A stretch of 64,000 nt of DNA, taken from the IMG/VR virus record IMGVR_UViG_3300049846_002551, positions 29,937 through 93,936 of that record; one strand, written 5' to 3'. Source of the stretch: a virus. The notes under the pieces were generated by a model. It saw nothing but the letters and a program-made list of their open reading frames with translations, was not told the DNA's origin and searched no databases. The position numbers were made by a program, and so were the translations under genes. Of the stretch, positions 19,161-53,951 are shown one piece after another. Each line of letters starts with the position of its first letter. Position 1 is the stretch's first letter.

Positions 19161-22106
19161 ATGCGCGTTGATTCCACTTCTTTTGACCGAATTTGTACGT
19201 TCGGTCTGGTTATGATTGTTAAGAATGGTGCTCATTTACTTTATAGGATTTTAGACCAGATTGCTCCCTCAGATAAAGATGGCATAGGGTTTGATCAAGT
19301 TGTAATTTTGGATACAGGTTCTACGGACGGGACTGTTCAACTTTTAAAAGACAAATACCCTTGGGTTGAGGTGCATGAAGCGAAGTGGGAGTTTGATTTT
19401 TCAATCGCTAGAAATCAAGCATTGAAGTATGTGAATACGGATTTGTGGATGTGGTTAGATGCAGATGACACCTTTACTTCTGAGACGCTTAAGCGGTGGT
19501 TCGAGATTGCAAAGGAGTTATGGTCTAATCGAACGACACCGGGGCATCCTGTTTACGCTTTAATTCCATACATTTATGAGGTGGATAAAAACGATCTTCC
19601 TGTCGTGGTTCATTATCGAGAACGAATCATGTTGGGAACTGAAGGGTGGGAATGGCGAGAACCTTTGCATGAGGTTTGCTATTACAACTTACCTGACGGG
19701 CATTTTGTGGCTTATAATGATTGTCCAGTTGTGCATAGGCCCATAGGTACGGACAATGCGAAAGTTAACGGCGACCGAAACTGGAAAATCATGATGCGAA
19801 ACTATCTAACCGAAGATAAAAGTGATCGCACTCTCTACTACATGGGACGTATGGCGAATGCGCGGCACCAATGGGAATTCGCAATTCAAATTTCTCAACA
19901 ATTACTTTCGCGCTCTCCCGGAGGTTATTACGAATATGAGGCCGCAGTTGCATGCGGAGAAGCTTATGCTGAGTTGTTCAAGCGGGATGACATTGAGGCG
20001 TATAAAGCTAAGGCGATTGAATTTTTAACTATTGCCAAACGGTACGAACCAACGCGCAATGACGCTCGACAGAAACTTTGTGATTTGTATATCTTTAGTC
20101 GAGACACGAAGCTAGCGATCAAGGAGGCTGAAGGTTTGAATGAGGCTATGCCAGCTACGGTTGCGACTACGCTTCCAGCGTATTATGGGAAGTACAAGTA
20201 TTCGGTTTTAGCTTTAATCTATTTTAGACTGGTAGGCAATGTTTGGTTGGCTATGGGGAATCACTTTAAAGCGTTAGATTGCCCGAAACCTCATGCTTCG
20301 TCTTTGCAATTGGATTCTGCGATTCGTGCTTATTTGGATGATCATGACATCGGTGTTATTTACGCGGATGAAAAGTACGTGAACCAAGCGATGGGTTTGC
20401 GAAAGATTTTGTTACAACGTGGGACATTTAAAGAAGTACTTGTGTTTAACGATACACATTGTTTGTCTTTTGCATCTAAATATTATTTCCACTTTACGGA
20501 AAAACTCGATACTCTTTATAAGGAAGATGGGCATCCAAGGCTACGAAAGTTTTTGGTAACACCTCGTCCATTAGAGGAACACCCACTAGGTTATGAAAGC
20601 GTAATTTGCATGCCTGACACTCCAAGTATGCTAGAGGCGTCGCTTGATGAAGCGTTGTCTCCATGTACGTTGGTATCTGGTCAATATGAACCTTTATCGG
20701 AGATTTTCGAACAAACTATGCGATGTCGGTCTGAGCGGGTATGTATCTCGTTTGTAACCGATTTAAATGATTGTCTTATGCAATACGAGAAGTCTAATCC
20801 TACGCAGTTTGATAGACTTAAATTTGTAGTTAATCGGATAGGAGAATGCTTTGGTATTATCGGTTGGACAGAGAGTGTAACATCTCTATTTGTTGATGAG
20901 TTTGGAATTGTAAGAACTCACGCTTTAGACAATATTGATTTTGTGATAGCCGATGAATCCTTTGGGTTTGATCTTGACAAACCAGGCGTTAAGATTCGAG
21001 TGGAATCTGTTGGGCAACCTAAAAAAGTGATTCATATTGTGGCTCCAGGAATTGAAGATTGGGATGGAACTACGCCGCGTAAATGGGGCATAGGGGCTTC
21101 AGAGTCTTGTGTGGTTTATTTAGCGGAAGAACTGGTGAAGCGTGGTCATCAAGTTATAGTTTACAACACTACGTTTAAATCGCGGATTGTGGCGGGTGTT
21201 GGTTATATACACATGGCGCAATATCACGATACCGGGCAACTGTGTGATTTATACATTTCTTCTCGGATTCCGGAAGCTCTTACAGGTCGCAGAGGAAAAA
21301 TGCAGGTTCTATGGATGCATGATATTCCAGAATCGTACACTTATCGAATTACAAATGACCAAGTAATTGATCGATATGTGGCTGTTTCAGAATGGCAATT
21401 ACAACAAGCTATTAAATGTAATCTTAAAGCTAGCAAATGTGTGCATATTCCAAATGGAATTAAGCCGTGGAAAAGTTTTGGAAAGAGAAGAAACGATACT
21501 CGTGTAATTTGGTCGAGTCAACCAGAACGTGGGTTAGATAATTTACATCGTTTTTGGCAAAAGAAGCCTGATTTATTTAGCGATGTTTGGGTGATTTATG
21601 GGTTTTACAATTTGTTAGTTTACGGAAAAGCGCGTAATAACATGGAACTAACGGAAGAAGCGTTCTATGATACTTGTCGATACAAGTATGCGCTTCGGCA
21701 AATGAAAGCGCGGATAGTGGGAAGGATTCCTCACTATCAAGTTTCCCAGTTGGCGCAAGCGTCAGGCCGTTGGATTTATCCTTCGGTGTTTCCAGAGACA
21801 TTTTGTGTGGCGGGATTGGAGATGCTGTATAACGGAGTGCAGTGCTACTATACTAATAATGGCGCAACTTCAGAAATTTTAGGAAAGGCTGGACTACCTG
21901 ATGTGGCAGATGGTAGAGAGGTTCGACGAATCAATTTATCACATGCAGTAGATGGTCCGGCGTTTGAGTTTGATTTGGATGCTAATGATTGGGTTGATAT
22001 GCTGAGTACGCATTTATTGACTGGAACACGCGAGATAGGGTTTTCTAACACCGATTTTTACTGGTCACGCATCGCGGACCAATGGGAGGAATTAATCAAT
22101 GCTTGA
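19161..22106 (+). CDS. Multidomain glycosyltransferase (GT2 + TPR + GT-B/GT4-like)
   Basis: MIVKNG...DTGSTDGT...DFSIARNQAL...WLDADD...LHE; TPR-like helices; C-terminal GASES...LWMHD...IPNGI...SSQPERGL...YPSVFPETFCVAGLE. Confidence 0.85.
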   Translation: MRVDSTSFDRICTFGLVMIVKNGAHLLYRILDQIAPSDKDGIGFDQVVILDTGSTDGTVQLLKDKYPWVEVHEAKWEFDFSIARNQALKYVNTDLWMWLDADDTFTSETLKRWFEIAKELWSNRTTPGHPVYALIPYIYEVDKNDLPVVVHYRERIMLGTEGWEWREPLHEVCYYNLPDGHFVAYNDCPVVHRPIGTDNAKVNGDRNWKIMMRNYLTEDKSDRTLYYMGRMANARHQWEFAIQISQQLLSRSPGGYYEYEAAVACGEAYAELFKRDDIEAYKAKAIEFLTIAKRYEPTRNDARQKLCDLYIFSRDTKLAIKEAEGLNEAMPATVATTLPAYYGKYKYSVLALIYFRLVGNVWLAMGNHFKALDCPKPHASSLQLDSAIRAYLDDHDIGVIYADEKYVNQAMGLRKILLQRGTFKEVLVFNDTHCLSFASKYYFHFTEKLDTLYKEDGHPRLRKFLVTPRPLEEHPLGYESVICMPDTPSMLEASLDEALSPCTLVSGQYEPLSEIFEQTMRCRSERVCISFVTDLNDCLMQYEKSNPTQFDRLKFVVNRIGECFGIIGWTESVTSLFVDEFGIVRTHALDNIDFVIADESFGFDLDKPGVKIRVESVGQPKKVIHIVAPGIEDWDGTTPRKWGIGASESCVVYLAEELVKRGHQVIVYNTTFKSRIVAGVGYIHMAQYHDTGQLCDLYISSRIPEALTGRRGKMQVLWMHDIPESYTYRITNDQVIDRYVAVSEWQLQQAIKCNLKASKCVHIPNGIKPWKSFGKRRNDTRVIWSSQPERGLDNLHRFWQKKPDLFSDVWVIYGFYNLLVYGKARNNMELTEEAFYDTCRYKYALRQMKARIVGRIPHYQVSQLAQASGRWIYPSVFPETFCVAGLEMLYNGVQCYYTNNGATSEILGKAGLPDVADGREVRRINLSHAVDGPAFEFDLDANDWVDMLSTHLLTGTREIGFSNTDFYWSRIADQWEELINA

Positions 22107-44948: not shown

Positions 44949-45579
44949 AATCAGAGAATTGCGCGAGAAGTATGTGGCATCTTTAGACCAAGAAAACGCT
45001 CCGGCTATTGCTACATTCTGTCAAGATAACGGTTATACCGATGATGCGGATATCAAAAAAGTTTTGCGCTTGGCTAAAAAAGAAAATTGGGAAGCGCATC
45101 GAGTTAAACGTCGTGCTAAGTTGGCTCTTGCGCTGGAAAAACGCGAAGATAAGCTTATAGCCAAACTTGCTGATGATATGATGCAGGTTAGAGAAGGCTT
45201 TATCAAGGATCAAATCAATGAAGTCAATGATTTGCTTCCGAAAATGATTGAAGAGCTTAGAGCGAGAATGGAGACAGGGTTTTTTGACGATAAGGCTTTG
45301 ATACAAGGCATTAAATTGATGATGGAATCTCGAAGTTCCTTAATGGCTTTAATCGATAAACAATACGGTTCCGATGCTAACGCTAATGTGGCGCAACAGG
45401 GCAATCTGTTTGATTTTTTAAACCGATTGGCTTTTCTAAGTCGACTGGTTGAAGTGAATGACGGAAAAATTTCATCGGTTACATTGGACCCTTCAAACTA
45501 CAAACATTTGAGTGAGCAGGATGACAAAGAACGCACCGCTCTTACGGAATTAGATTCGGAGGTGCTCAATGAGAAATGA
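44932..45579 (+). CDS. Probable terminase small subunit
   Basis: N-terminal HTH-like segment with ENW..HR, helical; directly upstream of and overlapping large terminase. Confidence 0.55.
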   Translation: MLTASEIRELREKYVASLDQENAPAIATFCQDNGYTDDADIKKVLRLAKKENWEAHRVKRRAKLALALEKREDKLIAKLADDMMQVREGFIKDQINEVNDLLPKMIEELRARMETGFFDDKALIQGIKLMMESRSSLMALIDKQYGSDANANVAQQGNLFDFLNRLAFLSRLVEVNDGKISSVTLDPSNYKHLSEQDDKERTALTELDSEVLNEK

Positions 45580-48274
45580 GATTGATTCTCAAATTCACGA
45601 ACGACTTATACAAAATAAAAAGCGCGAAGCATGGGATGCAGATAGCAAAACTGTTATCGAGCATGCGCTTATGATGGGTCTTGAAGATCGAGAAGAGCTA
45701 GTTCGTAAAGCTAGAGATTTAGCTTGTACTCAAGCACCACGAACACCGACAGAGCTATGGCATGCGATACACCTTTTATTCGGGTACAAGGTTCCTTTGA
45801 CTTCTACACATCCCGATTTTAATGCACCATTTGAATGGTTTAGCAAAGCATATTTTAATGTTACAGATGACTCGGTTGCATTAGCAAGTCGTGGTTCTGG
45901 AAAAACATTGTTAGGTTCAATTCTTACAGCTATTAAATCTATTTGGAATCCTGGTTATGAGGCTGTGCATGCTGGTGGCACACAGGTGCAAGCGCACGTG
46001 GCGTCATCTTATTTGAATACGTTCTATACGTTTCCGCATTTCAAACCTTTGTTCGATGGCAAACCTGCAAAGTTTTCTGCAAGCTGGAAGAACAATTCTC
46101 AATTCAAGATCGTGACTGGAAGTATGAAAGGTGTGTCTGGTCAGCATCCTATTTTATTGACGCTCGATGAGATCGAGTTTTGGGAAATTGAAGCTTTAAC
46201 ACAGACTTTTGAAGTTCCTGTAAATAAGCAAAATTATCGGCGCGTGTGGACGGCATTCTCTACTAGACAACGATGCTTACCTGGTTATACACGAATTTTA
46301 ACCGAAGATGGGCCAATGAAAATTTCCAAGGTGGTTCGTACTCGCTATGCTGGAAAAGTTAAATCTTTTAATAGTGTAACTCAAGTATGGGAATGGAAAC
46401 AAGTTATTGATTGGTACCACAATGGTTCGAGTAGCGAATGGTTTAAAATTTATCTTGAATATACAGGATTAGGTCGGGGTTGTGAATTAATTGCAACAAA
46501 AGAACATTATGTTTACTATGCTCCAGGCAAGAAAAAACCTCTTGATCAGTTTGTAGAAGGAGATTGTTTATGTTTGCCATCTTGGTGTCCAAGCGGTGAT
46601 CAACGTCAATTATTATTAGGAACGCTGTTAGGGGATGCCTGTCTTAGTGGTGGTTCTTTACGCGTGGAGCATTCTAGCAAACAAGTTAATTATTTACGTT
46701 GGTTTGGTAGAGCTTTTAAAGAAGAAGCGTTGCCAGAAGATTATAATGAGAAGCGGGATCATTATCTACAGCGTTTAAAAGTTTCTCCATATTTACATAG
46801 ATTACAAAAAGAATGGTATCCCGATAAAGTTAAACGAATTCCAGATTATGTATGGGAAGAGCTTGACGAAAGAGGACTTGCAGTTTGGTTAATGGATGAT
46901 GGTTCATATCGTAAAGCGGGTACTAATAACGGTGGTGACACTTGGCATATTTATTGTAATCATTTTAATTCTCATGAACGCGAACAAATGCAGAAATGGT
47001 TTAAATGTCGTGGAGTTTATTTAACATGGATGGAGATGCGTCCTGGACAATTTTATGCATATATTGGTGGAGCCTACGCTCGTCTTGTTACAGAGATGGT
47101 AAAAGCGTATATTGATGTGTCTACACACCTCGGTGTGCGACAAGGATGGAAACGATGGGTTGCTTCTGATTATGTAGAAACAGGGCATGAAGGTATTGAA
47201 CAGGTGCCTATTCGTAAAATTGAAGTGCTACAAACAAATCCACAAGGATGTTATGACATTGCCGTAGAAGGAAATCATAATTACTGTAATGGTTCAAATA
47301 TATTAGTTAGCAATTCTTATGGATGTATGAACTGGTTAGTCGATGAGGCACCAAAAAGAGGTTTTTCGTTTTTTCAGTGGTCTGTGTTTGAAGTTATGCA
47401 ACCATGTATTACGTGTGAAGCTTTGGATAAAGAGCCTTATGGAGATGATGAAGCGCGTGAGTGCGTTTGTCCCCTATGGGAAGCTTGTAGAGGTGAACGC
47501 GCTAAAAAATCAAGTGGGTGGCTTCCACTAAAAGATGCACGTGATAAGTGTATTCGGTTAGGTGGACCACGTGGGAGAGAATGGCAAACACAGGGCTTGT
47601 GTAATCGCCCATCTAGTCATGGATTAGTTCTTCACAATTTTGAGCATACTTACAGACCGGATGGGAACTACACGAAGTGGGAGTACAATCCGGAATTACC
47701 GTGGTACGCAGTGCATGATCCTGCGGAGGGCAAAAAGTCTGTTATATATTTTTTGCAAATTTATGATGGTATGACATTTGTGTTTGATGAGTTAGTTGAT
47801 CCGTTATGCCCGGATGTTACCACTGCAAAACAAGCTTTCTATGAGCATTGTTTGCGAATGAAGTACCCCGATCCTGAAAAGATAGTTGTAGACCCGCATC
47901 GAACGGACGCAGTTGCTACATGGAAGTTTGGATCAAAATCTGGAGTCGGTATTTTACACTCGTATAGTGCAGATGTCCCTGATATTTCTGAGGTTTCTGG
48001 CGTTACTCAGTTCTTAACTAAAACGATTGAATTGTTGCGTCAATCAATTTGTGATGGTCGTAATCATCGTAAGCTTTTTATCAATCCAGAATATTGTCCG
48101 CATGCGGTTCGCGGAATAAAAGAGTACCACTATCCAACTGATAAGGTTACTAATGACGTAAATTCAGATATACCACAAAAAGATTATTCGGATGAAGTTG
48201 ATCCCTTACGATATTGGGAGATGTATCGTGTTACGAAATTAAATCAAGGTGGTGGAAGAATTCTTGTTTTGTAG
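45569..48274 (+). CDS. terL: Terminase large subunit with intein
   Basis: ASRGSGKT, LTLDEIE, C-terminal RNaseH-like nuclease (VHDP...VFDE...DEVDPLRY). Confidence 0.85.
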   Translation: MRNEIDSQIHERLIQNKKREAWDADSKTVIEHALMMGLEDREELVRKARDLACTQAPRTPTELWHAIHLLFGYKVPLTSTHPDFNAPFEWFSKAYFNVTDDSVALASRGSGKTLLGSILTAIKSIWNPGYEAVHAGGTQVQAHVASSYLNTFYTFPHFKPLFDGKPAKFSASWKNNSQFKIVTGSMKGVSGQHPILLTLDEIEFWEIEALTQTFEVPVNKQNYRRVWTAFSTRQRCLPGYTRILTEDGPMKISKVVRTRYAGKVKSFNSVTQVWEWKQVIDWYHNGSSSEWFKIYLEYTGLGRGCELIATKEHYVYYAPGKKKPLDQFVEGDCLCLPSWCPSGDQRQLLLGTLLGDACLSGGSLRVEHSSKQVNYLRWFGRAFKEEALPEDYNEKRDHYLQRLKVSPYLHRLQKEWYPDKVKRIPDYVWEELDERGLAVWLMDDGSYRKAGTNNGGDTWHIYCNHFNSHEREQMQKWFKCRGVYLTWMEMRPGQFYAYIGGAYARLVTEMVKAYIDVSTHLGVRQGWKRWVASDYVETGHEGIEQVPIRKIEVLQTNPQGCYDIAVEGNHNYCNGSNILVSNSYGCMNWLVDEAPKRGFSFFQWSVFEVMQPCITCEALDKEPYGDDEARECVCPLWEACRGERAKKSSGWLPLKDARDKCIRLGGPRGREWQTQGLCNRPSSHGLVLHNFEHTYRPDGNYTKWEYNPELPWYAVHDPAEGKKSVIYFLQIYDGMTFVFDELVDPLCPDVTTAKQAFYEHCLRMKYPDPEKIVVDPHRTDAVATWKFGSKSGVGILHSYSADVPDISEVSGVTQFLTKTIELLRQSICDGRNHRKLFINPEYCPHAVRGIKEYHYPTDKVTNDVNSDIPQKDYSDEVDPLRYWEMYRVTKLNQGGGRILVL
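46274..47314 (+). mobile_element. Intein with LAGLIDADG homing endonuclease in terminase
   Basis: CLPGYTRILTEDG...TKEH...LLGTLLGDA...LAVWLMDDGS...YDIAVEGNHNY...VSN/S. Confidence 0.88.
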
Positions 48275-48384
48275 CACCTAAATATACTGGGAAATCTCCA
48301 GAAATTTTTCTAGTCCAATTTCCATGTGTAGACTGTCTATTACCTTTTAGACAGGGTATTTTTGAAGGAGTTCATTTCTACATC

Positions 48385-50271
48385 ATGGACATTGGTTCTC
48401 GTATTTTGTCGGACATGGTTCACTATGGTAAGTATGCCAAATACATTTACAATTTGCATCGACGCGAGTCTTATCTGGAAACACTTGAGCGGAACAAAGG
48501 GATGCATATTAGTCGATTTCCGCAACAGAAAGCACTAATTGAAGATGCGTATTCTTTAGTTGCCGAAAAGAAGATTTTACCTTCGATGCGTTCCATGCAA
48601 TTTGGTGGAAGTGCGATGTTTAAAAACCATGCACGTGGTTATAATTGTTGCTACTTACCGATTGAACATCACACCTCTTTTGCTGAAGCGATGTTTCTGT
48701 TATTGTGTGGAACTGGAGTAGGTTATTCGGTTCAACGCCATAACATAATGAACATTCCTCCGATCATGTCTCCCGGTCCATCACAACGTTATCTAATTGG
48801 AGATTCTATTGAAGGATGGGCGGATGCGGTGCGTCATTTAATGAAAGCATACTTACAAGGCGCACCACTCCCAAAGTTTGCTTATGACGACATTCGTCCA
48901 GCGGGTTCTGAGCTATCTTCTGGAGGTAAGGCTCCGGGTCCGGAGCCGCTTCGTAGAGTATTAGACCTGACGCGGGACTTGTTGGAATCTAAGCCTATTG
49001 GAAGTCGACTTACTTCATTAGATTGTCACGACATTTTGTGCTTATTATCAGAAGCAGTTTTAAGTGGTGGGATTAGGCGTTCGGCAATGATTGCGCTTTT
49101 TGATTACGATGATGCGCTTATGTTGAATTGCAAGAATCCAGAAAACTTTGAGTATCCAAGGGCCGATGGTTCTGGTGGAAAAAATGTTCAAAGAATGAGA
49201 GCTAACAATTCGGCAGTATTATTACGTTCTTTGCATAAGGAATACTTTGATAACATTTGGAAAACTGTGAGTGAGGCAGGATCAGGAGAGCCTGGAATTT
49301 TTTGGACTAACGATTTAGATTACGGAACAAATCCCTGTTGTGAGATTGCGCTTAGACCGTACTCTTTTTGTAACTTAACAGAAATTAACACTTCTAATTT
49401 GGAGGACCAGTCGGACTACGATCAACGGGCTTGGGCCGCATCGATTATTGGAACGTTGCAAGCGAGTTACACCGATTTTCATTACCTTCGACCAATTTGG
49501 CGACAAACAAGTGAAGAAGATGCGCTTTTAGGAATTGGCATGACTGGGATTGCAAGTGGCTGTGTTTTAGATTTAGACATGACGCAAGCGGCACGAGTTG
49601 CATGTGAAACTAACGAGTGGTTTTCAAAATCTATCGGTATCAATCAAGCAAAGCGTGTTACATGCGTTAAACCTTCTGGAACTACTTCACTAGTGTTGGG
49701 TTGTTCATCTGGAGTGCATGCTTGGCATGATTATTATTACATTCGAAGAGTTCGATTAGGAACTGATGAGCCGTTAGCACAATATCTCATGGTGCATCAT
49801 CCGGAAATTTTGGAGAATTCAATAGAGAAGCCTGAACGTGAAGTAATTGTTTCAGTTCCTGTTGAGGCTCCTGCCAAAGCAATTACTCGGCATCATGAGT
49901 CTCCGAACACTATTCTAGAACGAGTTAAAAAGATACACAAAGAGTGGATTACTCCGGGTCATCGAGAAGGTGCGAATCAACATAACGTTTCATGCACCGT
50001 TAGTATCAAATCTGGTGAATGGCGTGAGGTTGGGGATTGGATGTGGGAGAATAGAGCGCACTACACGGGTTTGTCGTGCTTTCCATTTTGGGGTTCAGAT
50101 AGTCTGCATGTTCAGGCCCCTTTTGAAACTATTACTGTTGACGATTACCGACAACGAGTTGCGGTTCTTAAAGATATTGATTTAACGAGTATCGTTGAAT
50201 CGACTAATGCGATTGAACATGAAGCGGAAAGTGCTTGTGCTGGTGGCGCATGTATGGTTACACGAATGTGA
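48385..50271 (+). CDS. nrdJ: Class II (B12-dependent) ribonucleotide reductase
   Basis: YNCC, GTGVGYSV, GGIRRSA, NPCCEI, CNLTEI, KPSGTTS, C-terminal CAGGAC; AAGGAG upstream of ATG 48385; no nrdB nearby. Confidence 0.9.
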   Translation: MDIGSRILSDMVHYGKYAKYIYNLHRRESYLETLERNKGMHISRFPQQKALIEDAYSLVAEKKILPSMRSMQFGGSAMFKNHARGYNCCYLPIEHHTSFAEAMFLLLCGTGVGYSVQRHNIMNIPPIMSPGPSQRYLIGDSIEGWADAVRHLMKAYLQGAPLPKFAYDDIRPAGSELSSGGKAPGPEPLRRVLDLTRDLLESKPIGSRLTSLDCHDILCLLSEAVLSGGIRRSAMIALFDYDDALMLNCKNPENFEYPRADGSGGKNVQRMRANNSAVLLRSLHKEYFDNIWKTVSEAGSGEPGIFWTNDLDYGTNPCCEIALRPYSFCNLTEINTSNLEDQSDYDQRAWAASIIGTLQASYTDFHYLRPIWRQTSEEDALLGIGMTGIASGCVLDLDMTQAARVACETNEWFSKSIGINQAKRVTCVKPSGTTSLVLGCSSGVHAWHDYYYIRRVRLGTDEPLAQYLMVHHPEILENSIEKPEREVIVSVPVEAPAKAITRHHESPNTILERVKKIHKEWITPGHREGANQHNVSCTVSIKSGEWREVGDWMWENRAHYTGLSCFPFWGSDSLHVQAPFETITVDDYRQRVAVLKDIDLTSIVESTNAIEHEAESACAGGACMVTRM

Positions 50272-50780: not shown

Positions 50781-51056
50781 GTGCGAACTGCCCATCAACC
50801 TGATGAAAGTCAGCCCCTTAACCTCAGTTCGGATGCGCTTCAATACTTGGGTGCGTTAAAAGAGTGCCATGAAGCCTTGATTGAAACGCTAGATGTCACA
50901 GATGAGATAATCAAGTTGGTAAAAGACTTTTTGGAGGGAGATGCTATAGATTCTCAGGACGTGTTGTTGTTATGCGAACGTTATGAGGTCATGTCGGCTT
51001 CCACAAGACAAAATTTTGAAATTTCAAAGTCCCCCCTTGACAAAACTACCCTTTAG
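50781..51056 (+). CDS. Hypothetical protein
   Basis: GGAGG RBS, acidic helical ORF. Confidence 0.55.
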   Translation: MRTAHQPDESQPLNLSSDALQYLGALKECHEALIETLDVTDEIIKLVKDFLEGDAIDSQDVLLLCERYEVMSASTRQNFEISKSPLDKTTL

Positions 51057-51067
51057 GGTGGTACAAT
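51037..51067 (+). promoter_or_regulatory. TTGACA-AAACTAC promoter copy 1
   Basis: TTGACA-19 nt-TACAAT with extended TG. Confidence 0.75.
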
Positions 51068-51093
51068 GATTTTGTTATCGAGTGGAAACCAAT

Positions 51094-51248: not shown

Positions 51249-51440
51249 ATGCAATTTTATGATGTTCGCACTCGACAACATGTTGATATTCCCGACGAAA
51301 ACTGCGAAAAGGTAGTTTTTGCTAAAGGAACCAGTAAAGAACGATATGCCTTTAAAGGGGTAACTCCGGCAGGTAACAAGGTGATGAAGTTTTGCTCGAA
51401 AACGGATTACGACGCTTCGACTTTGAAAGAAGGCGCGTAA
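51249..51440 (+). CDS. Small basic beta-sheet protein resembling CC1-type chromatin proteins
   Basis: MQFYDVRTRQHV...RYAFKG.TP.G.KV.KF pattern; AGGAG RBS. Confidence 0.55.
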   Translation: MQFYDVRTRQHVDIPDENCEKVVFAKGTSKERYAFKGVTPAGNKVMKFCSKTDYDASTLKEGA

Positions 51441-51445
51441 GTAGG

Positions 51446-51467
51446 TTTGTACATTGACAATTGAATA
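51446..51467 (+). promoter_or_regulatory. rrn boxA-like antitermination/leader motif
   Basis: TTTGTACATTGACAATTGAATA resembles boxA-containing rRNA spacer sequences; directly precedes giant ncRNA. Confidence 0.4.
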
Positions 51468-51480
51468 ACAAGTTTACGAT

Positions 51481-52398
51481 TTGGTCAGAACTAAACGCTA
51501 GTCGTTTGTAGTACGACCAAAAACACGGTGGTATAGCATCGTTAGATAGGGCATCGAGAGATGTGGAAAGGGATCAGGTTCTTCATACCCCCCGCTACTC
51601 CTTAAAAAGAGTAGTCATCTATGCAAGCTCAGTTGCTGTAAGCTTCAGGACCGAAAGGTATTGGAACTATACTGGTAATTGTGAAATCGAAACGTTTTAA
51701 GAAGCACGGGGGTGACACTATCGACTTCTTGGAGCCATCGGAGTAGCGTCTGATAAAGGTTTCATGCAAAGCAATGACAGTTAAGCGACGAAGAGTAGTG
51801 TTAGTGCTTGAGTTCAGTCGTGAATAAAAGCGTTAATGCAGGTGAGCGTGGAGAGCTACGCAGAAAGCGTAGCTGGAAACGTTAAATCAGACGAGTAACG
51901 TATAACGACCGTGAAAGTTAATAAGCGGTGTGTCGTATTTCTATCTTCAAAAGAGACTGAAGCGGCGGCGCACACACATCGTTATGAAGTTGCATATAGC
52001 TCAATGGTAGAGCAACGCCATGCTAGGGCGTAGGTTGCTGGTTCAAGTCCAGTTAAGCTACAAAAAAACGCACAAGTTGTGCGCCACATGATGACGACAA
52101 TTGGCCTCTGTCCTTAATCTTAGAGATGTAAGGAGCAGGAAGTCTCGCAAGGATAACCTGTAGTGTGACGAGGAACGACATAAACTCTTAGCGGGGTTGA
52201 ATTGCTGATAATAAGGCAAGTGGCAAGTACAGATTGCACAGTAGTCTCATGGTGACTGGGAAAGCATGTCCAGTATAAAAAATGCGGTCAGGCAGTCGGA
52301 CCATTCGCAAGGATGGTGGATAAGTTGGCAACAAGTATTGCAAATACTTGGTACTCCAATATAAAGCGACTGAGTATCAGGAGTAGTCTCGTCCTGTG
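51481..52398 (+). ncRNA. GOLLD-like giant non-coding RNA
   Basis: No credible ORF, dense hairpins; contains motifs I recall from GOLLD 3' domains (CGTATT...TCAAAAG...GAAGCG; AGTCTCGCAAGGATAA; TTAGCGGGGTT); embedded tRNA-like domain; ends approximate. Confidence 0.75.
51990..52061 (+). tRNA. Pseudo-tRNA (anticodon GCT) embedded in GOLLD-like RNA
   Basis: D arm GCTC-AATGGTA-GAGC, AC arm ACGCC-ATGCTAG-GGCGT, T arm GCTGG-TTCAAGT-CCAGT; two acceptor mismatches, no CCA, short variable loop. Confidence 0.7.
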
Positions 52399-52404
52399 AG
52401 TAAT

Positions 52405-52517
52405 ATGTATTGATGGTTAACACCGTAGCTGAAAGGTAGCGGGAATGGTGTGCGGACCTACGGAGCAATCTAGGGTTCGCATTCCTCCAGGGTGTGAATC
52501 CCAAACCATCAGTACAT
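52405..52517 (+). ncRNA. Unnamed structured RNA A
   Basis: 14-bp closing stem ATGTATTGATGGTT/AACCATCAGTACAT; internal stems; GGAAT/ATTCC possible pseudoknot; T-loop-like GGG-TGTGAAT-CCC. Confidence 0.65.
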
Positions 52518-52587
52518 TTTCAAATTTTGAATTTTCAAAGCTAATTTCTAAAAACTCGAATATGAAAATGATCGAAAATTTTTTAAG

Positions 52588-52796
52588 GTCGTGCGCGTAT
52601 ATGGGTTTTTTGGCTGAAAACGAGTTAGTCTCTGGGGTCATTTTAAGGAGTCCATAGCACCTTACTTTGGGAGATGGTGACGCGATACCCATGTAACGTC
52701 ATCTGAGGAAACCAGCCTGAATAACCAAGCTAATGAACACGAGTCCCTAGCAACGCTGGTGAAAGAGAAAACGTGTGACACTCCGGAGAGACGGAG
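52588..52796 (+). ncRNA. Unnamed structured RNA B ending in GTGACA-stem-GAGAGA module
   Basis: TATATGGGT/ACCCATGTA and other stems; CTCCG-GAGAGA-CGGAG followed by ATTTT. Confidence 0.5.
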
Positions 52797-52800
52797 ATTT

Positions 52801-52959
52801 TGTTACTCCATATGTGAATTACCATTTGGTTACTCGAAAGGGTAAGTGTGGTTCCAGTACAACAGACCAAGAAGATGCTGGCGGAAGCGACGATTATGTA
52901 ATTGCGGTGACCCGAACCAAAAGCGTCGTGAACAGGTGACATCCCCGGAAAGACGGGGG
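52801..52959 (+). ncRNA. Unnamed structured RNA C ending in GTGACA-stem-GAAAGA module
   Basis: TGTTACT/GGTGACA closing stem; TTACTC-GAAA-GGGTAA hairpin; TCCCCG-GAAAGA-CGGGGG. Confidence 0.5.
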
Positions 52960-52963
52960 CCGA

Positions 52964-53178
52964 TTTAGTTATAGGGTCGTAATCCGACATTGCTGTTGCT
53001 CGGCGGCAAAATCATGAGCGAACTAAAGAAATGGTGAAACACGCAGTAGGTAGTCGCTACTGATATGATGTTAGCAATAACATTGAAAATCCCCCAGCCG
53101 GAGGGGTCAGACTTAAAAAGGAATAGCGCAATTCTTCCCTAACCCGGACTCTAACCTGAGATGACTGGCAAAGTGCCA
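52964..53178 (+). ncRNA. Unnamed structured RNA D
   Basis: TTTAGTT/AACTAAA, GTCG/CGAC, TTGCTGT/GCGGCAA, CAGTAG/CTACTG, TGTTA-GCAA-TAACA stems; no credible ORF. Confidence 0.45.
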
Positions 53179-53250
53179 ATCCCCGGAACAAGCGGTGCAA
53201 CGAAGAGATAGCTACTCGGATACGTCGAAAGTTCGTACTTGCCGGGGATT
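53178..53250 (+). ncRNA. Unnamed 73-nt structured RNA E abutting tRNA-Glu
   Basis: AATCCCCGG/CCGGGGATT 9-bp closing stem plus CAAG/CTTG. Confidence 0.5.
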
Positions 53251-53253
53251 TTT

Positions 53254-53328
53254 GGCCTCTTGGTCTATCGGTTATGATCTCCGGCTTTCTACCGGAAGAG
53301 ACGGGTTCGACTCCCGTAGAGGCTACCA
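53254..53328 (+). tRNA. tRNA-Glu(TTC)
   Basis: GGCCTCT/AGAGGCT acceptor, TCCGG-CTTTCTA-CCGGA anticodon arm, GGTTCGACTCC T arm, encoded CCA. Confidence 0.93.
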
Positions 53329-53355: not shown

Positions 53356-53916
53356 ATGGCTAATGATCAAAAACCGTGGCGTAACAAGATTCCCATTCCT
53401 TACAAAGGCATTAACACTAGATATTCCCCTGCCCGTGTTAGTACAATGAAAGCCGTATTCGGAAGTCCAGTTGGTAAATTGACCAATGACTGTAACGAAG
53501 ATGCTATATCTCCAAAGATTGCGAAACGGATTAAGACCAGAAAAATCGGCAAGTGGAAGTTTCGAGGTCTTGATCTGTTTCTTGATGTAATTGAACAAGT
53601 TTTTGCCGAGTATGCGGTGAAATATCCGGATGCCTACAACGATCTTCATCAAGAAGGCATGCTTTGTGTTCGTTTAGTTCGCGGCAGTAAGTCGCAACCA
53701 AGCAATCATTCTTGGGGTACGGCAGTTGACTTAGGGTTTGGAGATGCCGTTGACAGTCGAGGCGATGGCTTTTGTTTTAAAGGGATGCTCGACCTGTATG
53801 CTATCGCTAAAAAATATAAGCTTTTTTGGGGTGCATCCTTTAGCACCGAAGATGCAATGCATTTTGAGGCTTCAGAGCAGTTGGTTCGGGAGTGGTCGGA
53901 AACAGGCTTAATTTAA
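53356..53916 (+). CDS. M15-family peptidoglycan peptidase (endolysin)
   Basis: R...SNHSWGTAVD...WG..F...DAMHFE. Confidence 0.85.
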   Translation: MANDQKPWRNKIPIPYKGINTRYSPARVSTMKAVFGSPVGKLTNDCNEDAISPKIAKRIKTRKIGKWKFRGLDLFLDVIEQVFAEYAVKYPDAYNDLHQEGMLCVRLVRGSKSQPSNHSWGTAVDLGFGDAVDSRGDGFCFKGMLDLYAIAKKYKLFWGASFSTEDAMHFEASEQLVREWSETGLI

Positions 53917-53920
53917 GTAT

Positions 53921-53951
53921 TTGACAAAACTACTCTTAATGGTGGTATAGT
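53921..53951 (+). promoter_or_regulatory. TTGACA-AAACTAC promoter copy 2
   Basis: TTGACA-19 nt-TATAGT. Confidence 0.75.

What the first reader, a model, noticed from the sequence alone, without database searches (positions are those of the whole stretch)
51481..52398. GOLLD-like RNA in a phage of an apparently unusual host group
Seen: ~920 nt with AGTCTCGCAAGGATAA (52141), TTAGCGGGGTT and CGTATTTCTATCTTCAAAAGAGACTGAAGCG, which match my recollection of the GOLLD 3' domain. The 5' half (51481-51925) is hairpin-rich and could be a divergent variant. If the host is Armatimonadota this would be an unusual setting for the family.
Basis: partly seen in the sequence, partly recalled or inferred. Interest (0 to 1): 0.7.

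Follow-up and report, generated by a model that had tools for sequence, protein, structure and literature searches.

The report
Divergent GOLLD RNA in freshwater phage
A gene-free stretch of about 0.9 kb in an uncultured freshwater-sediment phage encodes a diverged but genuine member of the GOLLD family of giant, cage-forming phage RNAs, with the usual tRNA-like insert. It is a new member of a known class, and no test supports the proposed unusual host.

Summary
All three quoted motifs are at the stated places. The Rfam GOLLD model (RF02032) matches 51923-52395 (+) over its full length at 120.6 bits, E 1.8e-32. This is below Rfam's gathering score of 150, so a default scan reports nothing.

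The 5' half is not a new kind of domain. A profile built only from the 5' regions of other GOLLD loci hits the window once, at 51545-51830 (E 1.5e-24), and four helices there covary across 19 phage loci.

A tRNA-like element (anticodon GCU, 51989-52062) sits in the variable linker. Ten other environmental GOLLDs have a linker tRNA at the same distance from the 3' domain.

The nearest relative is the GOLLD of a complete 479-kb phage (L194), which is also below the Rfam cut-off at 112.9 bits.

GOLLD is already published for phages of Caulobacter, Rhizobiales, roseobacters, Vibrio, Mycobacterium and Streptococcus, so the setting is ordinary. The Armatimonadota host idea rested on recollection. 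The one test I could run pointed weakly to Lentisphaeria MAGs instead, so the host stays unknown.

Earlier notes of this scan report GOLLDs with linker tRNAs in other phages.

Verdict: new member of a known kind, modest interest.

The parts
51037..51072 (+). Nearest upstream copy of the phage's own promoter motif (TTGACAAAACTAC, then TACAAT). It is the likely start of the transcription unit that contains the GOLLD RNA.
   Evidence: The motif occurs 8 times in the window, all on the + strand, against 0.29 expected by chance. The next copy downstream is at 53921. Its use as a promoter is inferred.
51481..51543 (+). 5' leader of the RNA, with a hairpin at 51481-51520. The true 5' end is uncertain and lies somewhere between 51441 and 51544.
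   Evidence: MFE fold. Partial alignment with the start of the L194 GOLLD. No sigma-70-type promoter was called here. TTGACA at 51454 and TACGAT at 51475 are only 15 nt apart.
51544..51831 (+). Conserved core of the GOLLD 5' domain. It holds a GNRA hairpin (51551-51555 with 51560-51564, loop GAGA), helix 51570-51574 with 51588-51593, hairpin 51594-51600 with 51609-51615, long-range helix 51627-51630 with 51793-51796, and hairpin 51806-51814 with 51823-51831.
   Evidence: A profile of 33 other GOLLD 5' regions, without this window or L194, hits only here at E 1.5e-24 and 82 bits. Pair counts: 88.7% of cells paired against 71.7% in shuffles and 36-44% when slid, and 18 of 22 pairs changed on both sides.
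51832..51922 (+). Rest of the 5' domain, including a perfect hairpin around 51853-51876.
   Evidence: MFE and centroid fold. Alignable with L194 near its 3' end (GTGAAA.GTAATA block). Not otherwise tested.
51923..51985 (+). Long hairpin that ends the 5' region (Rfam model positions 1-62), with the A-rich loop UCAAAAG.
   Evidence: Rfam alignment. The same loop is present in L002, phiCbK, the Mesorhizobium phage and PegLeg. Kretsch et al. describe conserved A's in L14 making the inter-chain A-minor bridge B6. The assignment of this loop to L14 is my inference.
51986..52085 (+). Variable linker. It holds a tRNA-like element at 51989-52062 (anticodon GCU, short variable arm, U-U and A-A mismatches in the acceptor stem) and then a hairpin at 52067-52085.
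   Evidence: tRNA model 51.7 bits. ARAGORN call. A linker tRNA lies 149-166 nt before CTCGCAAGG in 10 other environmental GOLLD loci, and 155 nt here. [quoted passage not shown]
52086..52395 (+). Universally conserved GOLLD 3' domain (Rfam model positions about 150-416).
   Evidence: Rfam alignment with the conserved CUCGCAAGG, AGUAGUC, GUGGAUAAG and GUAGUCUC blocks and nearly all helices intact. The same blocks occur in other GOLLDs.
52405..52541 (+). Cloverleaf-shaped element (14-bp closing stem and three arms, one with a T-loop-like UGUGAAU), followed by a U-rich tract. It may mark the 3' end of the GOLLD RNA by processing or termination.
   Evidence: Fold z-score -4.6, with no shuffle out of 200 as stable. 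No Rfam or ARAGORN match. In several other GOLLD loci a tRNA starts 7-25 nt after the GOLLD 3' end. L194 has an intrinsic terminator there instead. The role is inferred.

Best explanation
Positions about 51481-52395 (+) encode one large non-coding RNA of roughly 915 nt that is a diverged member of the GOLLD family. It has the family's layout. There is a 5' domain of about 440 nt whose 290-nt core is shared with other GOLLDs, then a long hairpin with an A-rich loop, then a variable linker carrying a tRNA-like element, then the conserved 3' domain. It lies in a mostly non-coding unit of about 2.8 kb between the ribonucleotide-reductase/small-regulator genes and an M15 peptidase (likely endolysin) gene, next to tRNA-Glu. 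It is probably read from the phage promoter at 51037.

By homology with the solved env-38 GOLLD, the most likely mode of action is as follows. During infection the RNA folds into two separate domains and self-assembles, without protein, into a closed 14-chain cage. The 5' domains form the caps, the 3' domains form the rings, and the linker with its tRNA-like element points into the interior.

Shown here: family membership, conserved structure of both domains, and linker-tRNA placement. Inferred: transcript ends, cage assembly, and timing of expression. The biological role of the cage is unknown for the whole family.
For: The full-length RF02032 match scores 120.6 bits, E 1.8e-32, and is unique in the 93.9-kb record. 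About 89 of 98 model pairs are standard.

Published GOLLDs scored the same way give 141.9-256 bits. Most of those with a tRNA in the linker score in the lower part of that range (141.9-193.5), and the Erythrobacter phage member is also below 150.

5' domain: iterative nhmmer from this RNA plus L194 collects collinear 5' cores of more than 20 GOLLD loci, including the Mesorhizobium, Erythrobacter and Phaeobacter phages. A leave-out profile hits 51545-51830 only, at E 1.5e-24. Covariation beats both shuffled and slid controls.

Linker tRNA: it is at the family-typical distance, and the feature is known in the literature.

Context: the record is a phage (replication genes, RNR, peptidase), tRNA-Glu is nearby, and there are no ORFs in the stretch.

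Nearest relative: L194 shares a 20-nt 5' block, the 3'-end signature and the linker tRNA. Many helix positions differ between the two while pairing is kept.
Against: The score is below Rfam's curated gathering score (120.6 against 150), so the standard annotation gives no hit.

I have no transcript data. No RNA run holds the sequence, so the ends, processing and expression are all inferred.

No canonical promoter lies directly upstream, and there is no clean terminator directly downstream.

The region around model positions 140-165 (consensus AAAGCAAAAGU) and one helix of the 5' core (51570-51574 with 51588-51593, only 3 of 5 pairs here) fit the consensus poorly.

Cage formation has been shown for a single family member (env-38), not for this one.
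Confidence: 0.88

Rival explanations
1. Two-piece or processed RNA. The linker tRNA-like element is cut out by RNase P and RNase Z. The locus then yields a tRNA plus separate 5'-domain and 3'-domain RNAs, which may or may not re-associate, and the GOLLD body serves mainly as a tRNA precursor scaffold.
For: The linker element scores as a tRNA at 51.7 bits, with intact D, anticodon and T arms. Half of the environmental GOLLDs carry a tRNA at this spot, and tRNAs often abut the 3' end. [quoted passage not shown]
Against: The acceptor stem has U-U and A-A mismatches. The GCU anticodon comes without the long variable arm that bacterial seryl-tRNA synthetase needs (established knowledge), so a decoding role is doubtful. 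L194's counterpart also has an imperfect acceptor stem. About half of the environmental GOLLDs in my set, and all of the Streptococcus-type ones, have no linker tRNA at all, so the body has a role of its own.
Confidence: 0.2
2. Decaying relic. This is a former GOLLD gene that no longer works, which would explain the sub-threshold score.
For: The score is 30 bits under the Rfam cut-off. Some consensus blocks are altered.
Against: About 91% of model pairs are still standard. The 5' core retains all conserved blocks and helices. Most published GOLLDs with a linker tRNA also score in the lower part of the range, 141.9-193.5 bits. The equally low-scoring L194 GOLLD sits in a complete 479-kb phage as a tidy unit with its own promoter-like box and terminator.
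Confidence: 0.05
3. A separate, undescribed RNA family that only shares a few motifs with GOLLD.
For: blastn finds no GOLLD by sequence alone. Signature motifs are shared only with L194 in IMG/VR.
Against: Both halves match GOLLD-derived models end to end and in the right order. The linker tRNA is at the family distance.
Confidence: 0.03

Closest known systems
GOLLD RNA (Rfam RF02032; Weinberg et al. 2009; env-38 cryo-EM structure, Kretsch et al. 2025, PMC12286853)
   Same: The order of parts is the same: 5' domain, A-rich-loop hairpin, variable linker, conserved 3' domain. It matches the full model. It has a conserved 5' core, and the tRNA-like element in its linker is a feature published for part of the family. 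Its length is about 0.9 kb, it is phage-encoded, and it lies next to tRNAs.
   Different: It scores 120.6 bits, below the 150-bit cut-off. The sequence is so diverged that blastn finds nothing. The block just after the linker departs from consensus. The GNRA loop of the 5' core is GAGA where most relatives have GCAA or GAAA. Assembly and expression are untested.
GOLLD of the 478,840-bp phage IMGVR_UViG_3300044957_000763 (locus L194, 5850-6318)
   Same: It is the nearest relative found. It shares the 5' block GAAAGGGAYCAGGTTCTTCA, the 3' signature (GTGGAYAAG.TGGCAA ... GTAGTCTCG.CCTG) and a tRNA-like element at the same linker position. It is also below the Rfam cut-off at 112.9 bits. The two group together in a rough tree.
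   Different: Identity is only about 46-48%. Its linker tRNA has anticodon UCA. It is a stand-alone unit with an extended -10 box and an intrinsic terminator. The flanking genes are unrelated to this window.
ROOL RNA (Rfam RF03087)
   Same: It is a large, ornate, phage-encoded RNA near tRNA islands that forms an RNA-only cage.
   Different: It has an unrelated sequence and fold. No ROOL match was found in the window at E up to 10 around the locus or at gathering score anywhere.

Membership tests
GOLLD (RF02032) | Statistically significant, full-length match to the family covariance model (conserved 3' domain plus the preceding hairpin) | tested here: met
   120.6 bits, E 1.8e-32, model positions 1-416 of 416. 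E 1.1e-34 in the whole record.
GOLLD (RF02032) | Rfam curated gathering score of 150 bits. This is an operational annotation cut-off, not a structural feature. | tested here: not met
   120.6 bits is below 150. The published alignment includes the Erythrobacter phage L02 member, which scores 141.9. L194 scores 112.9, and two further IMG/VR GOLLDs score 129-139. Published members with a tRNA in the linker score 141.9-193.5, so the insert probably costs score; this is my inference.
GOLLD (RF02032) | Helices of the 3' domain and of the closing helix are kept as base pairs | tested here: met
   About 9 non-standard pairs among roughly 98 model pairs, from the NC line of the alignment.
GOLLD (RF02032) | Hairpin with a conserved A-rich loop just before the linker | tested here: met
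   The loop UCAAAAG is at about 51946-51952 and is shared with other GOLLDs.
GOLLD (RF02032) | Large, less conserved 5' domain upstream of the modelled part | tested here: met
   Leave-out nhmmer profile: 51545-51830, E 1.5e-24. 22 pairs in 4 helices: 88.7% paired, no shuffle out of 500 as good, slid controls 36-44%.
GOLLD (RF02032) | Variable linker between the domains, in some members holding a tRNA | tested here: met
   tRNA-like element at 51989-52062, 155 nt before CTCGCAAGG. In 10 other loci the distance is 149-166 nt.
GOLLD (RF02032) | Encoded by a phage or prophage, typically beside tRNA genes | tested here: met
   The record is an IMG/VR virus record with phage replication and lysis genes. 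tRNA-Glu lies 860 nt downstream.
GOLLD (RF02032) | Self-assembly into a 14-chain RNA-only cage | not testable with these tools
   Shown only for env-38. It needs in vitro transcription and mass photometry or cryo-EM.
GOLLD (RF02032) | Expression as one long RNA that rises during lytic growth | not testable with these tools
   No RNA run holds the sequence. Only DNA contigs could be laid on it.

The most novel reading that the evidence does not exclude
This RNA and the L194 RNA represent a distinct deep branch of GOLLD that standard Rfam annotation misses. In this branch the linker element is a non-decoding tRNA mimic kept inside the cage as working cargo, for example as a decoy for a host tRNA-targeting defence. 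The cloverleaf at 52405-52520 replaces the flanking tRNA as the 3' processing signal. The host may belong to a phylum with no known GOLLD phages.
Probability: 0.12. Interest if true: 0.55.

Novelty: new member of a known kind. Interest (0 to 1): 0.3.

Why it matters
GOLLD is one of only a few natural RNAs known to build protein-free cages, and its function is still unknown. This locus adds a deeply diverged member from a freshwater-sediment phage unrelated to any cultured phage. It shows that the Rfam cut-off misses part of the family: two of the GOLLDs found here score 113-121 bits. It also shows that a core of about 290 nt in the 'less conserved' 5' domain is recognisable across environmental and alphaproteobacterial-phage GOLLDs. 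That helps anyone building a full-length family model or choosing diverse members for structural work. It does not by itself open the question of function.

Tried and rejected
- blastn of the locus against 50,697 cultured-phage records found only tRNA matches.
- blastn and nhmmer of single sequences against the first set of loci found nothing.
- The first IMG/VR pattern (CTCGCAAGG..AGTAGTC) was too loose. Only 1 of 48 records held a GOLLD.
- Three stricter patterns returned nothing or only L002.
- Phages with the closest RNR in IMG/VR (about 50% identity, L121-L135) have no GOLLD.
- Two metagenome scans, one for the 5' block and one for the 3' end of a related fragment, found nothing.
- The last two IMG/VR scans returned only L194.
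- Sequencing runs: the stretch is held by a freshwater-sediment metagenome (probably the source) and, in identical fragments, by a freshwater metagenome. No RNA holder is listed.
- Host: cluster members of related RNRs carry no organism names. Relatives cannot be drawn for a virus record. GOLLD was not found in two Lentisphaeria MAGs or in 151 sampled genomes of their phylum. The helicase's nearest cultured relatives are about 30% identical, namely a Microcystis phage and a huge uncultured phage.
- The sigma-70 scan found no promoter directly upstream.
- The Weinberg 2009 paper is not held.
- RNAalifold on a column-trimmed alignment gave no useful structure. The untrimmed alignment did.
- The stretch 52521-53253 as a whole is not unusually structured (z -1.1).

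Full report
**What is there**

The window is bases 29937-93936 of a 93,936-bp linear IMG/VR virus record that CheckV rates about 81% complete. Nearly all genes are on the + strand. They include helicases, a UvsX-like recombinase, a class II-type ribonucleotide reductase at 48214-50271, glycosyltransferases and DNA methylases.

Between the stop of a 63-aa ORF (51440) and an M15 peptidase gene (53356-53916) lie 1.9 kb with no credible ORF. This gap holds two tRNA-model hits. One has anticodon GCU at 51989-52062, and the other is tRNA-Glu(UUC) at 53254-53328.

**Check of the observation**

A default Rfam scan at gathering thresholds reports no GOLLD. With E-value reporting, RF02032 matches 51923-52395 (+) at 120.6 bits, E 1.8e-32, across all 416 model positions. 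This is the only such match in the record. By my count of the NC marks, roughly 9 of about 98 model pairs are non-standard.

To calibrate the score, I fetched ten GOLLD loci listed in the published alignment of Kretsch et al. (PMC12286853, supplementary file 6). These were phages of Caulobacter, Mesorhizobium, Ruegeria, Erythrobacter, Vibrio, Mycobacterium, Streptococcus and Phaeobacter. I scored them the same way and they give 141.9-256 bits. Members with a tRNA inside the linker score 141.9-193.5, mostly at the low end, and the Erythrobacter phage member is itself under the cut-off. The 150-bit threshold is therefore an annotation convenience, not a boundary of the family.

**The 5' half**

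The Rfam model covers only the last hairpin of the 5' region, the linker and the 3' domain.

A three-block pattern taken from conserved 3'-domain motifs recovered 77 IMG/VR loci. All 21 that I re-scored are GOLLDs. blastn found one of them, L194, sharing a 49-nt block with the 5' half of this RNA. L194 comes from a complete 478,840-bp phage with terminal repeats.

A pairwise alignment shows the two RNAs are collinear over their whole length at about 46% identity, including a tRNA-like element at the same linker position. Starting from these two 5' regions, iterative nhmmer drew in the collinear 5' cores of more than 20 other GOLLD loci. These include the cultured Mesorhizobium, Erythrobacter and Phaeobacter phages. 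The first 78 positions also match the Streptococcus-type GOLLDs weakly.

As an independent test, I rebuilt the profile from 33 distinct sequences without this window or L194 and searched both strands of the whole window. It hits once, at 51545-51830 (+), E 1.5e-24, covering the full profile.

RNAalifold on that alignment gives a GNRA hairpin, two further local helices, a long-range helix (51627-51630 with 51793-51796) and a terminal hairpin. Each shows several pair types, and this RNA conforms to them.

I then counted pairs on an independent MAFFT alignment of 19 loci (A1) for 22 pairs in four helices. The results were:
- 88.7% of cells are paired, against 71.7% in shuffles (0 of 500 as high).
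- Slid partners give 36-44%.
- 18 pairs carry changes on both sides.

The 5' half is therefore the ordinary GOLLD 5' domain, diverged in sequence. It is not a new architecture. One helix (51570-51574 with 51588-51593) is only partly formed here.

**The linker element**

The tRNA-like element has intact D, anticodon and T arms. It also has U-U and A-A mismatches in the acceptor stem, and a GCU anticodon on a body with a short variable arm. From established knowledge of seryl-tRNA synthetase identity rules, this makes it a doubtful serine tRNA.

It is typical of the family in one respect. Eleven of the 21 environmental (non-Streptococcus-type) GOLLD loci, this one included, have a tRNA call that starts 149-166 nt before the CTCGCAAGG block; here the distance is 155 nt. 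Several of those calls are odd, with anticodons CUA or UCA or with 2- or 4-nt anticodons. phiCbK, the Mesorhizobium phage, mycobacteriophage Rey and Phaeobacter phage MD18 also carry an annotated tRNA inside the GOLLD span. The published structure paper notes that tRNAs are sometimes present in the linker and that the linker points into the cage interior.

**Ends and expression**

These are inferred only. The phage's own promoter motif TTGACAAAACTAC occurs eight times (0.29 expected). The nearest copy upstream of the RNA is at 51037, and the next is at 53921. The RNA is therefore probably part of a largely non-coding unit that also holds the 63-aa ORF, tRNA-Glu and perhaps the peptidase gene. 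No sigma-70 site is called directly upstream.

Ten bases after the model's 3' end begins a cloverleaf-shaped element (52405-52520, z -4.6) followed by a U-rich tract. In several other loci a real tRNA starts 7-25 nt after the GOLLD end, and L194 has an intrinsic terminator there. The cloverleaf may therefore define the 3' end by processing or termination. No RNA sequencing run holds the locus.

**Mechanism**

For the family, the only experimentally supported property is RNA-only self-assembly. env-38 GOLLD forms a closed 14-chain cage with D7 symmetry, in which 5' domains form the caps, 3' domains form the rings, and the linker lies inside.

This RNA keeps both domains, the A-rich loop that I assign to the published inter-chain A-minor bridge, and the linker placement. 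I therefore take the same assembly as the most likely behaviour, at about 55-60%. Homology itself I hold at about 0.9. What the cage does is unknown for all members.

**Host and setting**

The Armatimonadota suggestion comes from a first-stage note that itself says it rests on recollection. The one scan of reference genomes that I could run used the 63-aa ORF next to the RNA. It found relatives only in uncultured Lentisphaeria MAGs from lakes, at 43-45% identity, which is weak evidence. No GOLLD was found in those MAGs or in 151 sampled genomes of their phylum. The helicase's closest cultured-phage relatives are only about 30% identical. The DNA occurs in a freshwater-sediment metagenome and a freshwater metagenome. 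The host is unknown. Published GOLLD hosts already span Proteobacteria, Actinobacteria and Firmicutes, so a further host group would be a modest extension.

**Relation to other GOLLDs**

Signature motifs of the 5' block and of the 3' end are shared in IMG/VR only with L194. A rough tree of the 3' domain puts the two together on long branches. The genes around L194 are unrelated to this window. A 259-nt contig in the source sample carries the 3' end of a further related GOLLD. Earlier notes of this scan describe GOLLDs with ordinary or permuted tRNA-like linkers in other phage genomes, so the kind of object has been met before in the scan.

**Verdict**

This is a genuine, deeply diverged GOLLD RNA with the standard two-domain layout and a linker tRNA mimic, in an uncultured freshwater phage. 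It is a new member of a known kind. The score below the Rfam cut-off and the recognisable 5' core are useful details for people who curate or study the family. The claim of an unusual host is unsupported.

Noticed in passing
window 52405-52541: A cloverleaf-shaped RNA element (14-bp closing stem and three arms, one with a T-loop-like UGUGAAU), followed by a U-rich tract, begins 10 nt after the GOLLD 3' end. Its fold z-score is -4.6. It has no Rfam or ARAGORN match. It sits where other GOLLD loci have a tRNA or a terminator.
   Followed up: partly
window 51989-52062; L194 5919-5991; loci L157, L160, L205: tRNA calls inside GOLLD linkers are often odd. Here the anticodon is GCU on a short-variable-arm body with two acceptor mismatches. 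L194 has UCA, L157 has CUA, and L160 and L205 have 4-nt or 2-nt anticodons. This suggests that many linker elements are suppressor or non-decoding tRNA mimics.
   Followed up: partly
window 51037, 53921, 54375, 56484, 56840, 57747, 61753, 62755: The 13-nt motif TTG(A/C)CAAAACTAC occurs eight times, all on the + strand, against 0.29 expected. It looks like a phage-specific promoter family with a conserved spacer word.
   Followed up: partly
window 45569-48274: A 901-aa ORF just upstream of the RNR gene, and overlapping it, carries a LAGLIDADG homing-endonuclease domain and a weak intein-splicing match. This suggests an intein-bearing or split nucleotide-metabolism gene.
   Followed up: no
window 51249-51440: The 63-aa ORF directly upstream of the GOLLD RNA has no Pfam family. 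Its only relatives in reference genomes are in uncultured Lentisphaeria MAGs from lakes (43-45% identity), two copies in one MAG.
   Followed up: partly
record of L183 (G060:C1:20212-20657 and 21539-22019): One IMG/VR phage fragment carries two GOLLD matches about 0.9 kb apart, at 164.4 and 129.1 bits. This is a tandem pair.
   Followed up: no
window 52305-52367 (sequencing run X1, a 259-nt contig): The source freshwater-sediment sample holds a second, related GOLLD 3' end, with 11 differences in 63 nt and then GGGGTAGTCTCGCCCTGT. It comes from another phage that could not be retrieved from any collection.
   Followed up: partly
window 53254-53328: tRNA-Glu(UUC) has the anticodon loop C-U-UUC-U-A, so position 37 is a pyrimidine. 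This can be seen in the tRNA model alignment.
   Followed up: no
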